Shown here: one piece after another, positions 27,401-33,100 of the stretch | Layout: each line of letters begins with the position of its first letter | Position numbering within the stretch: the stretch's first letter is position 1 | Origin: Anolis carolinensis | Lineage: Eukaryota | DNA: 64,000 nt | Assembly: GCF_035594765.1 (NCBI RefSeq) | Contig: NC_085845.1 | Coordinates: 186,822,897-186,886,896, forward strand | Direction of reading: 5' to 3' | Position numbers: made by a program

Positions 27401-30085
27401 TGGACTTCAGCTCCCACAATTCCTAACAGCTGGTAAGCTGGCTGGGATTTCTAGGAGCTAAATGCAAAACACTTGGAGGGGCACAGTTTGAGAAACACAG
27501 CTCTAGAAGATCAACATGTGACCTGAATAGTTAGCAAAGGAAGCTTAAATATCTTTAAAAATGGTTCAGCTGACTTTCTAGAGCAGGGATTCTCCTTTGG
27601 AATATTATTGGTTCACACATTTCAAAACCCAAATTCCTTAAAGATCTGCAGAATTCTTGTTAATTAGTAATGGGAAACCTTTTTAAGCTTTCAAATAAAT
27701 TTCTATTTCACCATTTCCTTGCCCGCAATTCAAGATGTCTAATTCAGGTCAATCTGCTATCCTCACAGAGAGAAGCGATTATAATTTGAGTAAACATTTC
27801 AGTGTTAAGAGTAAAAGAAGCTGCTGCTTTAGCCACAGGCCAGCTTCATCCAAGCAGTGATCCAGAAACAGGCAAAGATAGAAAACAGTTCTTACTGGTT
27901 ACAATACTTTGTGCCAGCATACAGCTCCTTGCAAAAGCCAGACATTTAGTTGCTTAGTTCCTTTCTTTCCCATGGCCTGGTTCAAATATCTCATGGATTA
28001 GAAAACCACAGAATAGCTCTTTTTCCTTCTCAGGAATACTTCTCCCATGCCAGCAAGGCTCTGTTTGTTATTTGCATGGTTCCCTTCATTTTTCCAACAC
28101 TCGTTAACAAAATACAGCTGCTTCTTTTCAGACCTTCTTTTCAGGTCTGGCAACTTAGGCAAACTTGAATGATGGTTTCCTCCTTTCATCAAGAAAAGGA
28201 ATTTAGCTCCTTCATAGTTCACACAGGAATATGGGTTATACATATTGTCTTCCTGTCCCACTGTAAAGAGTATCTTACAATTGTAAGATACTTTTAGCAT
28301 TCTATTCCAATTTTCTGCCAGTGCCAAAGTATTGGTAAAGTTACCCTGACAGATGGACATCCAGCCTCTTTCTAGACACCTCTCTATAAGAAAAATAGGC
28401 CAACTTCCAAGACAATCTATTCCCCTTGTAAACAGCTTTTATTTTCAGGGAGTTCTTCATGTTGAGATGAAATATCCAATAAAAATTGACCCCATTGGTT
28501 TAGACCCTATTCTCTGGAGCAACAAGAAAGAAGTTTCCTGCATCTTCCATGTGGCAGTCTTTTGATTTACATCACATACTATAGTTTATTCTTCAGGCTG
28601 AACCAACTTAATGCCTTTAAATGTATCTCAGAAGGCTTGGTTTTTCAGGCCCTTTATCATCTTGTTCATTTTCTTCTCTACACATTCCAGCTTGTCAATA
28701 ACCTTATTAAAGTATATGCCTTGAATGGAATACTGTACTTCAAGTGTAATCTGACCAAAACAGAAATAATAAACTTACTTCCCTTAAACTTCCCTTAATC
28801 GGGACACTACAGTTCTCTTTATGTAGCCTAGAACTGCTTTAGCTTTTTTTTTTGCCCCTGAGCAATGCTGTTGATCCAGGCTTAGCTTGTGGTCTAGTAA
28901 AACCCCTAGATCCTCTTCATATGTAGTGCTATGCCATCTTTCCTTTATGTGTATAAATCTGAAAGGTTTCATGCTTAAATGTTGTTCTTGTGTTTCTTCA
29001 GGTCATTTCTGACTTATGGCGCTCCTATCACAATTTTTTTTTTTGCGGGGGGGGGGGGGGTATTATTTGGTTTTTGAGAATCACATTCTGGCTGTTAGTA
29101 ATTGTTACATTTAGTTCTAAGTGGCCATAGACGTCTTTTTAAATTATCTGTTCTATAATCTGTATTGGTATTGGCAAGAAATATTTCATTGCAAGTGTAT
29201 TTCTCTGCACATAAAAAGTTCTGTAATTTGTGTTGATCCTTGAATTATTTAATTGTAAAGGAAATGATAATTCAGCATGCACTCTATTAAATATTTCCAT
29301 TTTAAGTTGTGAGTGGAACAAAATAGTATCCATATTTTTATATCAAACAAACCATTCCTTTTTTCTTCTTCTTTCCAACCCGTTAATAAACTGTCTCTGA
29401 AATGCAGATTTCTAAATTAGTACATCCTCCTTTCATCAGTGACCTCATAATTAAAGATTGCCTTTCTTCCTTTTCAGGTACTGGCCAAATGAACTTATAA
29501 TGTGCCAATATAATGTCATTGGTTCGTTGTGGTTACTTTCAGCAGAGTAAATGCATGCATTGTAACTTGGATTGTTAATCTCATCTGTTTATCAGTTTGA
29601 TGGTAATAGAACTTTCACATGAACTATGCTTACATTAGTCCTAAACTGCACATACCTCCCAGACTAATCTGGCCACACTGTGTTTAATTTCTGCTAGTGG
29701 GGGTAGAATGATATAAAAGAAGTTTTTGATTTCAAAAAAATCTTCCTATATGCCTTGGTGATCCACCCTGTATTGCTGAACCTTCCATGTCCAGGAAGCA
29801 TACTTGTCTAGTTATTTCTATATACAGCAGTTGCATCCTATACCATACACATATGTCATTATTTGTGACAGAATATTGCTGTATATGTACTTTTTGCTAC
29901 TAATGATAAATCTTTCTCCTTTCATTGTTGCTGTCTTGCCTGTCTGCTAATATCCTGCTCTGCTTGAAATATGCTTGCAGATCCTGTCATAGCATTTGGT
30001 GTTAGTTCAAGCTAAGGGTTAGTATATAATCCTGTGAGTTTGGATGCTAATCTTCTCTACATCATTCCAATTTTAGTATATGTGC

Positions 30086-30116
<31 letters not shown>

Positions 30117-33100
30117 TGATACAGAGAGTTTGGATTTGGAAACAACATATCAGTATGAAGATAATGTAAAAAATAGAGGTCACATTTAGACTTTGAAAAA
30201 GTAAAGATGTGGGCGAAAGGAAAATGTTAAAATTCATTTATGAGGTCATCTTGAAAATCACAATACCGTGCGAGCTTTACGTGGGAAACAAAACTGGTGG
30301 GGAAGACAAAGTAGCTGACTCGTAATGCACACATATGCATGCACACATAGTCATAAGAATCAGACATTCTACAGCTGAATTTCCTTCTTTGCTCTCCATG
30401 AATCAACCAGGTTGGAATCACCTGGACGACACATGTTCAGGTAGTTCTAAGCCTTGATAGTCAAGTTAAATTTTCTTTTTGGGAGATGTCCCACCCCCAT
30501 AAGTTTTTTTAAAATCCTCTTTGTTTCCAACTGGCTTGCAAAGGGTCAAGACAGAACTAAGTCATGCTACAGAATCCCAGGTATTTCCCCACCTGCAAGC
30601 TGAACTGGTAAGTTATTATTAGGATCTTGATAGCAATTTTAGGTTAGTGGTAGTAAAAGTTATTTAGCCAATTCTGTGCATTGTTTTATTCTAAAAGCGG
30701 GTATTTTTCTAAAACGGTTCTCTGCTTAATTCTATAATAAATAGACCAAATCCGAAACTTATTTGCTTTATTCATTTACTGGAATTGTCTTATTCGTTTA
30801 CTAGAAAATATATGCTGCTTTTAAGGTGTTTTTTAAAAAGCTCTGCAAAATAGTTTTATTCTTCATTTCATTACCAGGGTGGAAATCATACAGCCTTTCA
30901 CATGTTGCTGAATTATCCCTTTGGGACAGGCATGGGCAAACTTCAGCCCTTCAGGTGTTTTGGACTTCAACTCCCACAATTCCTAACAGCCGGTAAGCTG
31001 TCTGGGATTTTGGGGAGTTGAAGTCCAAAACACCTGGAGGGCTGAAGTTTGTCCATGCCTGCTCTAGGACTACCAGAAGTTGTAGCTCAGCCAGTTCTGG
31101 AGGAATGCAAGATTCCCATCCCTGCCAAATTAATGAAACTCATGCCTGGAATCTCGTGGTCTAAATTCAGTTAAATAGTAAACTACCCCTTGTATAAACC
31201 CTATTCATCCAGTGGGTCTACTCTAGTAGGGTGAATCTCACCCTTATGCAGGCCCGTTCTTCCAAAATAAGAATTACTAAGAACTCTTAATTTCATACTC
31301 AGTAGCATGGGTTAGATCTACTTCTGGAGTACAGAGACAACATGGGGCATCTTCTTCTGCTCTGAATTGTTTTCACAGTAGTCCAGCACAAATATTGTCA
31401 TTAGTTTTTCAGTACTAGTGTGGAGGTTGGATGCTGCTTAATGTAGAGTATACTAAGCAGTACACTAGCAGCCTTGTGCAGCAGAAGTTTTCTTTACCCA
31501 CTCCAGCTCCAGGTATGTTTCAAAAAGCTGCTCCAGATCATCTGGCCCTCCAACCTCGAGCAGATGTGATAGGAGCACAAGACTGTAGGGAGAATAGGAA
31601 TCATGTTCATTGCCTGGTGAAAGGAGTCAATTTGTTACAAGTGATCTTACATAAGTAGTTGAGAAATGGTGCTAATATTTAATACATCTTAATGCTTTCT
31701 TTACAAACTGTGTCTTCTGTAAAATCATAGCTTCTGTGCATTTGTGTAAAGAGTTAATAGTTTATGATTCTATGTAGACCACCTGGCTGTACTTGACATG
31801 CAGCTTCTTACGAAATGCTGTACATTTGGAGAATTAAGGAGCCCTAACCTGAGTTTTAAAAAAAGTCCAACTTACATTCAGATCATGTTCATAAAAGAAT
31901 CAGCGGGGATTTATGGAACCACAGAAAAATATGTGAGGTAATTTTAAAGTACCTTCTGTTTCTGAAAATGAAGAGCCTGGGTTGCTACATCTTTTGAAGG
32001 AACTATATCCTGCGCCTATGATAACATGGTGGAGGATATAGATTAATTTTGCTTATTAAGATTGAAGTGAATCTTCAGTATTAATCTGAATGAGGGGAGA
32101 TGACAAAGTAAATGAGAAAAGATCATCAGTGTTGTATTCTGATTTCACTAAGTCTTGTTTGCTCATTATTTAAATGTTAAGGTACTGAATAAGAATGTTT
32201 TGCTCAGATTATCCATTTTGGGACATGTCTGCCTTTGTTTAAATAACATTGACTGATATTCACCTTTATTTTTAAAAGGATACGAAATGCATTCAGGAGA
32301 CTAGATGGAGCTCAAATATCAAATGCAACACACTGTTCGAAGTGAAAATATGCTCTGTCTTTAACATTCACAATGATACACTCTTAAGGATATTATAAAG
32401 CATGCATGTTGGTTATTTCCATTTTTTTCTGTTTCTATTTTTGCTAAGTAAAGCATAGTTGTCCTGCTTTTTCCACCTTAGAGACCTGTCATTTTTCTCT
32501 TTTCATTTTTTGAGTGTTAAAAATAATCAGTGTGAAGACATCTTGCTTCTCAGGGAACATTAAGAGACAGAAAGAACTGTAAAAGATGAAAAACTGGCAT
32601 GTGCATGTTTCCTAGACAGCTCTGTCTTATTACAGACAAGCAAGGTGTGACCGAGTTCCATGCTGATTGCAGAGCCTAACATTATTAACAAAATGTGCAC
32701 AAGTTAGCATTGGTAACGTGTAGAATTAACAAAATCTCACTAAATGCACTTTGACCCAAATGGTCAACCTCAACAGTTACATAAAAATGACATAAGCATA
32801 ATTGTGGTAGACTCCCAGGGGTTGGCAGCACACAGCTGTAATGTTTTCTGCTCATATTTAAATTTCATAAGTAAGGAAATTCAACCTTCAGTAAGGCTTT
32901 AAATATTCACAAGGTAATCTGCATTGCCTGAATGTCCACATTAAATACCTTTATAGTAATTTATTTATAGCTGTGATGTGTCTTTTGCTTTTGTTTTCTT
33001 TGTTTAGTGAATACAAAACGTGATAATGGGATGCAGCATTATGAAGTTATTTTGTAACTTAGCTGTCCATATGAGTTCTGAGGGAGATGGATTAGTTCTG

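What the first reader, a model, noticed from the sequence alone, without database searches (positions are those of the whole stretch)
30036..30135. Snap-back U6 snRNA insertion: perfect 28-bp hairpin between 10-bp direct repeats
Seen: 30061-30088 pairs perfectly with 30093-30120 around U6's own TTCG loop; the bulged C of the native 5' stem is absent; both arms share one C-to-T change relative to U6; gagtttggat flanks both sides with 2-nt microhomology at each junction; no poly(A) or LINE tail. Established: U6 retrocopies are normally linear or U6/LINE chimeras. Inference: U6 cDNA self-primed on its 5' stem-loop and was captured at a staggered break; in ERC1 pre-mRNA it is an shRNA-like stem with an anti-U6 arm.
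Basis: partly seen in the sequence, partly recalled or inferred. Interest (0 to 1): 0.72.

Follow-up and report, generated by a model that had tools for sequence, protein, structure and literature searches.

The report
Head-to-head U6 retrocopy hairpin in ERC1 intron
Two partial DNA copies of the U6 spliceosomal RNA sit head to head as an 80-base hairpin between 10-base target duplications inside an ERC1 intron of a lizard-like genome, a rare form of an ordinary retro-insertion that is probably a harmless fossil.

Summary
Window 30061-30088 pairs perfectly with 30093-30120 around TTCG. It is the only perfect hairpin of 16 bp or more in the 64 kb. Both arms are U6-derived (Rfam: minus strand 37.5 bits, plus strand 32.9 bits). 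The 10-mer GAGTTTGGAT flanks both sides.

The antisense arm reaches U6 model position 55 and the sense arm only position 45. The arms also mismatch at 30059-30060 against 30121-30122.

Arm asymmetry plus loop orientation exclude snap-back at the target from either primer. They also exclude stepwise growth from one linear pseudogene. Two models remain:
- Twin priming: both 3' overhangs of a staggered break primed on U6 through 2-nt microhomology, and the two cDNAs joined at the self-complementary 5' stem. I favour this.

The site lies in an 18.8-kb ERC1 intron on the sense strand, in a squamate-like, non-human window. No function is shown. It is a new variant of known tailless snRNA retrocopies and is of modest interest. 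Raw reads, orthologous loci and other genomes could not be checked.

The parts
30036..30045 (.). Left copy of the 10-bp target-site duplication, GAGTTTGGAT. Its last 2 nt (30044-30045) could equally be U6-derived (microhomology).
   Evidence: The Rfam minus-strand U6 match ends at 30044.
30044..30088 (-). Long arm: U6 copy on the minus strand, so antisense U6 in the ERC1 transcript. It reaches Rfam U6 model position 55. It differs from the consensus at 30059-30060 and at 30064.
   Evidence: RF00026, 30044-30099 minus strand, model 1-55, 37.5 bits, alignment printed; arm comparison.
30089..30092 (+). Loop TTCG. It has the sense orientation of the U6 tetraloop on the plus strand, and its CpG is intact.
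30093..30127 (+). Short arm: U6 copy on the plus strand, reaching only model position 45 (it ends in ACAGAGA). It carries a C-to-T change at 30117. Its last 2 nt overlap the duplication.
   Evidence: RF00026, 30082-30127 plus strand, model 1-45, 32.9 bits..
30126..30135 (.). Right copy of the 10-bp target-site duplication, GAGTTTGGAT.
30082..30099 (.). Centre of symmetry. It is the U6 5' stem-loop made perfect (7 bp plus a 4-nt loop), without the extra C seen in printed U6 primers. This is the junction between the two copies. The GC/GC next to the loop could belong to either copy.
   Evidence: One search compared with the primers printed.
14611..14746 (+). ERC1 coding exon upstream of the host intron (Cast domain). 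The acceptor is cag| and the donor is |gtaaca.
33508..33668 (+). The next ERC1 coding exon. The host intron is 14747-33507, and the hairpin ends 3,372 nt before the acceptor.

Best explanation
This is a single retro-insertion event made of two partial U6 cDNAs joined head to head. It is twin priming in which both primers used U6 RNA.

Proposed steps (all inferred):
1. A staggered break left two complementary 10-nt 3' overhangs.
2. The plus-strand end (...GGAT-3') paired by 2 nt with U6 near model positions 54-55. The minus-strand end (...ACTC-3') paired by 2 nt with the GA at positions 44-45, at the end of the ACAGAGA box.
3. A LINE-type reverse transcriptase extended both ends toward the U6 5' end.
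4. Two cDNAs of the same polarity can pair only where the RNA is self-complementary, which is the 5' stem-loop. Their 3' ends annealed there (GC/GC next to the loop, or the 7-bp stem with the extra base lost). Each was then extended on the other.
5. Filling in the overhangs gave the duplication.

What the sequence shows: U6 identity, arm lengths, loop orientation, duplication, microhomologies and the intron location. The identity of the enzyme is inferred, as are the priming order, whether one or two U6 molecules were used, and how the extra C was lost.

Consequence: a neutral intronic fossil. The ERC1 pre-mRNA can fold into a 35-bp hairpin there, and nothing indicates that the hairpin is used.
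For: 1. Two U6 copies lie in opposite orientation inside one pair of perfect 10-bp duplications. This geometry puts a free 3' end at each side, as the twin-priming model requires (Kojima 2010 passages).
2. Each outer junction shares 2 nt between U6 and target (coordinates). My estimate of the chance is about 1/16 per junction. Internal priming by such short pairing in purine-rich single-stranded snRNA segments, with duplications and no tail, is the documented origin of 3'-truncated snRNA pseudogenes. That class is the largest one for U6 in Anolis, at 25 of 41 (Doucet 2015). The same paper reports snRNAs recruited at the top-strand end by twin priming.
3. The arms end at different U6 positions (55 against 45), as expected for two independent priming events.
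4. The loop is sense on the strand where the short arm is sense. The long arm also carries 10 U6 positions that the short arm lacks. Together these exclude the one-primer models (my reasoning).
5. The junction lies exactly in the only sizeable self-complementary part of the copied U6 region.
6. The window is lizard-like, and several retroelement reverse-transcriptase fragments lie nearby.
Against: 1. Neither nick site resembles the L1 endonuclease consensus 5'-TTTT/A quoted. The plus strand reads ...TTTGGAT/TTGG and the minus strand ...AAACTC/ACAGG.
2. No LINE sequence or poly(A) marks a primary TPRT end. Every twin-primed snRNA example I read about had an L1 partner.
3. Classical twin priming gives non-overlapping or slightly overlapping segments. 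Here about 33-35 nt were copied twice, which needs strand displacement or two RNA molecules.
4. Both arms share the C-to-T change. Two independent cDNAs would share it only under one of three conditions: both came from one variant RNA; the CpG decayed in parallel on both arms, while the loop CpG survived; or a later palindrome-correcting template switch copied it across.
5. The perfect centre needs either exact stops or loss of the extra base.
6. There is one locus, no orthologues and no reads, so nothing here is experimental.
Confidence: 0.45

Rival explanations
1. A free snap-back cDNA hairpin was captured. This is the surviving form of the reader's idea. A U6 cDNA made away from this site ran from at least model position 55 to the 5' stem-loop. 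It folded back on the stem complement next to the loop and copied itself. The single-stranded fold-back molecule, which is the minus strand here, was then joined into a staggered break by 2-nt microhomology at each end. Its 5' arm lost about 10 nt in the process.
For: - It makes a perfect centre without the extra C and gives identical arms, so the shared C-to-T needs only one event.
- Snap-back of a cDNA 3' end onto its own cDNA is a recorded class of junction for R2-protein TPRT in human cells (PMC11371274 passages).
- Small-hairpin self-annealing with 2-bp microhomology gives inverted duplications at L1 breaks (bioRxiv 10.1101/2024.12.14.628481 passages).
- The non-L1-like target site fits capture at a pre-existing break.
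Against: - It needs an unexplained primer for off-target U6 cDNA synthesis, survival of a free DNA hairpin, unfolding, and asymmetric trimming.
- The snap-backs I read about occurred at the target. The at-target versions are excluded here by loop orientation (plus primer) and by U6 positions 46-55 in the other arm (minus primer).
- The microhomologies sit exactly where priming would put them.
Confidence: 0.3
2. Stepwise DNA-level origin. An ordinary linear 3'-truncated U6 pseudogene inserted first. A later replication fold-back or template switch at the short inverted repeat of the 5' stem then duplicated it in inverted order.
For: Imperfect palindromes are known hot spots for template-switch mutation (recalled, not checked here). 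Such an event could also explain the loss of the extra C and the arm-to-arm sharing of the C-to-T.
Against: - Starting from the short sense copy, the antisense arm could not have gained U6 positions 46-55 (10 of 10 match the Rfam consensus).
- Starting from the long antisense copy, a fold-back of the nascent strand gives CGAA on the plus strand. TTCG is seen.
- The new arm would also have to end exactly at the start of the duplication.
Confidence: 0.07
3. Assembly or library artefact: a fold-back chimera that is not present in the animal's genome.
For: Palindromes are a known artefact class in long-read libraries (recalled). No reads could be examined here.
Against: - The palindrome is 80 bp, internal, made of an snRNA rather than local sequence, and framed by a perfect target duplication.
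- It has unequal arms and two arm mismatches.
- An in-vitro fold-back would copy flanking genomic DNA and would be perfect.
Confidence: 0.04
4. A functional small-RNA hairpin. This concerns use, not origin. After insertion the intronic hairpin became a source of small RNAs or an RNA-editing target that affects U6 or ERC1 splicing.
For: - The stem is 35 bp with a 28-bp perfect core in a transcribed intron.
- 800 bp downstream, a transposon-like inverted repeat resembles the Rfam family mir-5408 (60.5 bits against a gathering score of 90). Repeat-derived hairpins of that kind have therefore been annotated as miRNA precursors.
Against: - No Rfam miRNA family is reached. The best is 42.3 bits against a cut-off of 81, a plant family matched by shape only.
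- The apical loop is 4 nt, which is unfavourable for Microprocessor (recalled).
- The anti-U6 arm is sequestered by its own partner.
- There are no conservation or expression data.
Confidence: 0.05

Closest known systems
3'-truncated ('tailless') snRNA retropseudogenes made by template choice (Doucet et al. 2015, PMC4476161; passages and section 8 read, figures and supplements not seen)
   Same: Each arm starts at the U6 5' region and stops inside the RNA. It has no poly(A), is bounded by a target duplication, and shares a few nucleotides with the target at its 3' junction. The shorter arm stops in the purine-rich ACAGAGA stretch. This class is common in a lizard genome (25 of 41 analysed U6 copies).
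   Different: There are two copies in one site, head to head. The target does not look like the L1 endonuclease consensus that the paper found for this class.
Twin-primed insertions: 5'-inverted L1 copies and inverted snRNA/L1 chimeras (Kojima 2010, PMC2912911, passages; Doucet 2015 passages; Ostertag and Kazazian 2001 known only through these citations, paper not held)
   Same: Two oppositely oriented segments lie inside one duplication. There is microhomology at both ends and at the inversion junction. An snRNA is primed internally from the second break end.
   Different: There is no LINE or poly(A) partner. Both segments come from the same small RNA and cover the same 33-35 nt, so the product is a true palindrome. 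The junction is set by the RNA's own stem-loop.
cDNA snap-back junctions in R2-protein mediated insertion (PMC11371274, passages) and small-hairpin inverted duplications at L1-induced breaks (bioRxiv 10.1101/2024.12.14.628481, passages)
   Same: An inverted copy abuts the end of a cDNA, with 2-bp microhomology at the turn.
   Different: Here the at-target snap-back geometry fails on loop orientation or on arm content. Only an off-target hairpin that was later captured would fit.

Membership tests
U6 spliceosomal RNA gene (Rfam RF00026) | Match to the whole 105-position model at or above the gathering score of 44 bits | tested here: not met
   The two matches score 37.5 bits (model 1-55) and 32.9 bits (model 1-45). 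No match appears at the gathering threshold. These are U6-derived fragments, not a gene.
3'-truncated tailless snRNA retropseudogene | snRNA 5' part present, 3' part missing, no poly(A) | tested here: met
   Both arms begin at model position 1 and end at positions 55 and 45. The flanks have no A-run.
3'-truncated tailless snRNA retropseudogene | Flanked by a target-site duplication | tested here: met
   A perfect 10-bp duplication flanks the pair of copies as a unit.
3'-truncated tailless snRNA retropseudogene | Sequence complementarity between target and snRNA at the 3' junction | tested here: met
   There is a 2-nt overlap at each outer junction: 30044-30045 and 30126-30127.
3'-truncated tailless snRNA retropseudogene | Insertion site resembling the L1 endonuclease consensus 5'-TTTT/A | tested here: not met
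   The inferred nicks are ...TTTGGAT/TTGG on the plus strand and ...AAACTC/ACAGG on the minus strand (consensus as quoted). Lizard LINE endonucleases may have other preferences, which I did not test.
Twin-primed insertion | Two segments in opposite orientation within one target duplication, with microhomology at the ends and at the inversion junction | tested here: met
   The junction nucleotides GC/GC could belong to either arm.
Twin-primed insertion | One segment is a primary TPRT product carrying the LINE 3' end or poly(A) | tested here: not met
   There is no LINE sequence or A-tail inside the duplication.
At-target cDNA snap-back | The copy-back arm is templated by the primary cDNA, so it holds nothing the primary arm lacks, and the loop is antisense on the continuous strand | tested here: not met
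   With the plus strand continuous, the loop reads TTCG instead of CGAA. With the minus strand continuous, the copy-back arm holds U6 positions 46-55, which are absent from the primary arm.
miRNA precursor families (Rfam) | Score at or above a family's gathering score | tested here: not met
   The best is MIR845_1 at 42.3 bits against 81. All others are also below their cut-offs.
MITE (miniature inverted-repeat DNA transposon) | Many dispersed copies of the same unit with terminal inverted repeats and a family-specific duplication | not testable with these tools
   There is only one copy in the window, and no eukaryotic genome collection was available. The arms are U6 sequence and overlap the duplication by microhomology, which a transposase model does not predict.

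The most novel reading that the evidence does not exclude
The hairpin is not inert. As part of the ERC1 pre-mRNA it would be processed or edited. It would then yield small RNAs complementary to the U6 region that includes the ACAGAGA box. Alternatively, it could be one of a lineage-specific set of snRNA-derived hairpins formed by double priming that feed the small-RNA machinery, as the neighbouring mir-5408-like repeat hairpins may do.
Probability: 0.05. Interest if true: 0.65.

Novelty: new variant of a known kind. Interest (0 to 1): 0.36.

Why it matters
If the twin-priming reading is right, this locus is a natural record of two things.
- Both 3' ends of one integration break can prime reverse transcription on the same abundant small RNA by 2-nt pairing.
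- An RNA's own stem-loop can serve as the joint between two cDNAs of the same polarity, giving a perfect palindrome in one step.

This would be a simple route from any structured small RNA to a genomic hairpin. Such a route bears on how hairpin RNA genes and small fragile palindromes arise.

The locus also gives a search image: a head-to-head snRNA pair within one duplication, with unequal arms. That image would let the frequency of the event be measured across genomes. For ERC1 itself nothing suggests an effect.

Tried and rejected
- **Rfam at gathering thresholds over the whole window:** 0 matches. The U6 identity shows only with E-value thresholds.
- **miRNA-family matches to the hairpin:** all are far below their cut-offs. 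They are mostly plant families matched on both strands, so I treated them as shape-only matches.
- **Search for a paralogous empty site:** 500 bp of each flank compared with the window gave only self-matches.
- **tRNA scan:** 0 genes. The whole-window E-value Rfam scan listed 8 matches, and none was another snRNA fragment.
- **Literature on a palindromic or head-to-head U6 retrocopy:** four full-text searches and one on U6 chimeras listed none. I judged most by title and the start of the abstract only. Word searches inside two papers found no such case:
  - Doucet 2015 had 0 hits for 'palindrom' and 'hairpin'. The shown passages for 'inverted' (3 hits) concerned inverted snRNA/L1 chimeras.
  - PMC13174262 had 0 hits for 'inverted', 'hairpin', 'palindrom', 'snap-back' and 'head-to-head'.
  
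  Subscription journals and supplements were not covered, so this does not prove absence.
- **Ostertag and Kazazian 2001:** not held. I used later papers' descriptions instead.
- **Models rejected on the sequence:** at-target snap-back from either primer, and stepwise growth from either a sense or an antisense linear copy. Reasons are in the report.
- **Collections not used:**
  - Genome contigs holds bacteria and archaea only, so it cannot answer a question about vertebrate U6 copies.
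Full report
**What is there**

Reading 29800-30400 and the repeat finder show a palindrome.
- The arms 30054-30088 and 30093-30127 are 35 nt long and 94% complementary. A 4-nt spacer, TTCG, separates them.
- The inner 28 bp (30061-30088 with 30093-30120) pair perfectly.
- The only mismatches are 30059-30060 against 30121-30122.
- An exhaustive scan of the 64-kb window for perfect stems of 16 bp or more with loops of 3-8 nt returns this locus alone.
- Among 11 short-range inverted repeats in the window, it has the longest perfect core and one of the shortest spacers.
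- As RNA, the 120-nt region folds at -57.1 kcal/mol, z = -10.8, with 0 of 200 shuffles as stable. As DNA, z = -11.3.
- The hairpin persists in a 400-nt context.

**It is U6**

No Rfam family reaches its gathering score anywhere in the window. With E-value thresholds, U6 (RF00026) matches twice.
- Minus strand, 30044-30099: model positions 1-55, 37.5 bits.
- Plus strand, 30082-30127: model positions 1-45, 32.9 bits.
- Local E-values are 5.4e-8 and 1.4e-6. Whole-window E-values are 8.6e-6 and 2.2e-4.
- Both scores fall below the cut-off of 44 because the copies are truncated.
- A 24-nt U6 stretch occurs once on each strand and never in 100 shuffles.

The printed alignment shows that the minus-strand copy differs from the consensus in two places. 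One is a C-to-U in the AAC-gAU stretch. The other is two adjacent positions just before AGAGA.

The plus-strand copy has the consensus ACAG there. It shares the C-to-T, because the arms are identical over that stretch.

U6 forward primers printed in two papers read ...GTGCTCGCTTCGG... and CTCGCTTCGG... (the first paper is marked retracted, though the primer is a standard one). The window reads GTGCTGCTTCGG. The C that interrupts the native 5' stem is therefore missing.

Doucet et al. state that the human U6 sequence is conserved in lizard and birds.

**Borders**

- GAGTTTGGAT occurs at 30036-30045 and 30126-30135.
- It is the only exact 10-mer pair at that spacing in the window, where 0.085 is expected.
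- The two U6 matches run 2 nt into the duplication on each side (30044-30045 and 30126-30127).
- Nothing A-rich or LINE-like lies between U6 and the duplication.
- The flanks are single-copy within the window.

The arms are unequal. The antisense arm carries ten more U6 positions (46-55, all ten matching the consensus) than the sense arm, which stops after ACAGAGA. This asymmetry and the orientation of the loop carry most of the mechanistic information.

**Context**

- A Cast-domain exon lies on the plus strand.
- Searched as a single exon, it is 100% identical to ERC1 of many squamates and of opossum, and 98% identical to primates and birds.
- tblastn of 11 named reptile and opossum ERC1 proteins finds two consecutive coding exons on the plus strand. 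I read their splice sites directly: 14611-14746 and 33508-33668.
That step was left out.
- The palindrome therefore lies in the 18,761-nt intron 14747-33507, 3,372 nt before the acceptor, on the transcribed strand.

I take the window to be from a squamate reptile and not from human, for three reasons:
- the exon identities above;
- a retroelement with long open frames, a reverse transcriptase domain and weak tyrosine-recombinase-type hits at 1051-6201;
- repeat hairpins resembling mir-5408, which I recall as a lizard family.

No contig that I take for human was saved or compared.

**Mechanism: what the sequence allows**

A duplication of this kind implies two complementary 10-nt 3' overhangs: plus strand ...GGAT-3' on the left, and minus strand ...ACTC-3' on the right.

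I considered five routes.

a. *Snap-back at the target from the plus-strand primer.* The plus strand would read antisense arm, then the cDNA version of the loop (CGAA), then the sense arm. The plus strand reads TTCG. Rejected.

b. *Snap-back at the target from the minus-strand primer.* The primary cDNA starts at position 45. A copy-back would pass position 45 into the primer and reproduce target sequence. Instead the arm continues with U6 positions 46-55. Rejected.

c. *Stepwise growth from a linear pseudogene.* Starting from the short sense copy fails for the same reason as (b). Starting from the long antisense copy fails for the same reason as (a). Unlikely.

d. *Twin priming with U6 at both ends.* Each overhang primes by 2 nt. 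Two antisense cDNAs are made, and they can pair only at the self-complementary 5' stem-loop. They anneal there and are extended on each other. This reproduces the loop orientation, the unequal arms, the three microhomologies and the duplication.

e. *Capture of a cDNA hairpin made elsewhere.* The molecule is the minus strand, and its 5' arm is trimmed by about 10 nt. This also reproduces the structure but needs more steps.

**What is known**

Doucet et al. 2015 (passages and section 8) report the following:
- 3'-truncated snRNA copies without tails are 65% of human snRNA copies.
- 70-100% of them have duplications.
- They truncate in single-stranded purine-rich segments and show complementarity to the target. 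The authors call this 'template choice'.
- In Anolis, 25 of 41 analysed U6 copies are of this class.
- snRNAs can be recruited at the second break end by twin priming, though always with an L1 partner in their examples.

Kojima 2010 (passages) describes the twin-priming steps, including annealing of the two cDNAs at short complementarity.

Snap-back of cDNA 3' ends is a recorded junction class for R2-protein insertion in human cells. Small-hairpin inverted duplications with 2-bp microhomology occur at L1-induced breaks.

Every element of the event is therefore known. The combination — two copies of one small RNA, fully overlapping, joined at the RNA's own stem-loop, with no LINE partner — did not turn up. 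I looked in four full-text searches, one search on U6 chimeras, and word searches inside two papers. Most listings were judged by title and abstract start only. Supplements and figures were not seen.

**Points against my preferred reading**

- Neither nick site resembles 5'-TTTT/A.
- There is no primary LINE end.
- The overlap of 33-35 nt is far larger than in classical twin priming.
- The shared C-to-T needs one variant RNA used twice, parallel CpG decay (while the loop CpG at 30091-30092 survives), or later arm-to-arm correction.
- The perfect centre needs exact stops or loss of one base.

For these reasons I give twin priming 0.45 and hairpin capture 0.30.

**Age and effect**

There are two adjacent non-CpG differences in one arm, decayed CpGs in both arms, and perfect duplications. 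These suggest an insertion that is neither new nor ancient (inference).

I found no evidence of function. No miRNA family is reached. The 4-nt loop is unfavourable for Microprocessor (recalled). The anti-U6 arm is paired to its own partner.

**Not checked**

Raw reads, orthologous loci, other copies in the same genome and small-RNA data could not be examined.

Noticed in passing
window 1051-6201 (+): A retroelement with three long overlapping open frames (732, 757 and 984 aa). It has a reverse transcriptase domain (RVT_1, E 6e-22), a weak RNase H hit and weak phage-integrase N-terminal SAM-like hits, the latter two below curated cut-offs. It looks like a DIRS-like tyrosine-recombinase retrotransposon that may be intact, lying upstream of the ERC1 exon at 14611.
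   Followed up: partly
window 41692-47490 (+), and 6662-6753 against 47403-47490: A second element with reverse-transcriptase pieces split over several frames (RVT_1 at 44320-45165). A 24-nt-arm hairpin follows both this element and the first one, and the two hairpins have identical arms (I3 and I4). This suggests a degraded second copy of the same family.
   Followed up: partly
window 30927-31061 and 25856-25925: A transposon-like inverted repeat with 57-nt arms (91% complementary, 21-nt spacer) lies 800 bp downstream of the U6 hairpin. It matches Rfam mir-5408 at 60.5 and 56.9 bits on the two strands, below the gathering score of 90. A partial second copy scores 51.3 bits. No clear target duplication was seen by eye.
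   Followed up: partly
window 49249-53562 (-), 11204-11611 (+), 62572-62934 (+): Further reverse-transcriptase fragments and a zinc-knuckle (zf-CCHC) open frame. The introns are rich in retroelement debris of several kinds.
   Followed up: no
window 30026-30035 against 30116-30125: The 10 nt upstream of the left duplication match the last 10 nt of the sense U6 arm at 6 of 10 positions (family D1, 20 nt at 80%). My binomial estimate is about 0.02, made post hoc. If real, the overhang that paired with U6 may have been longer than the visible 10-bp duplication.
   Followed up: partly
window 30044 and 30127 (outer ends of the two U6 copies): The two internal start points on U6 are 10 model positions apart (55 against 45). 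This is the same as the length of the target duplication. It may be coincidence, or a hint that one U6 molecule bridged both overhangs.
   Followed up: no
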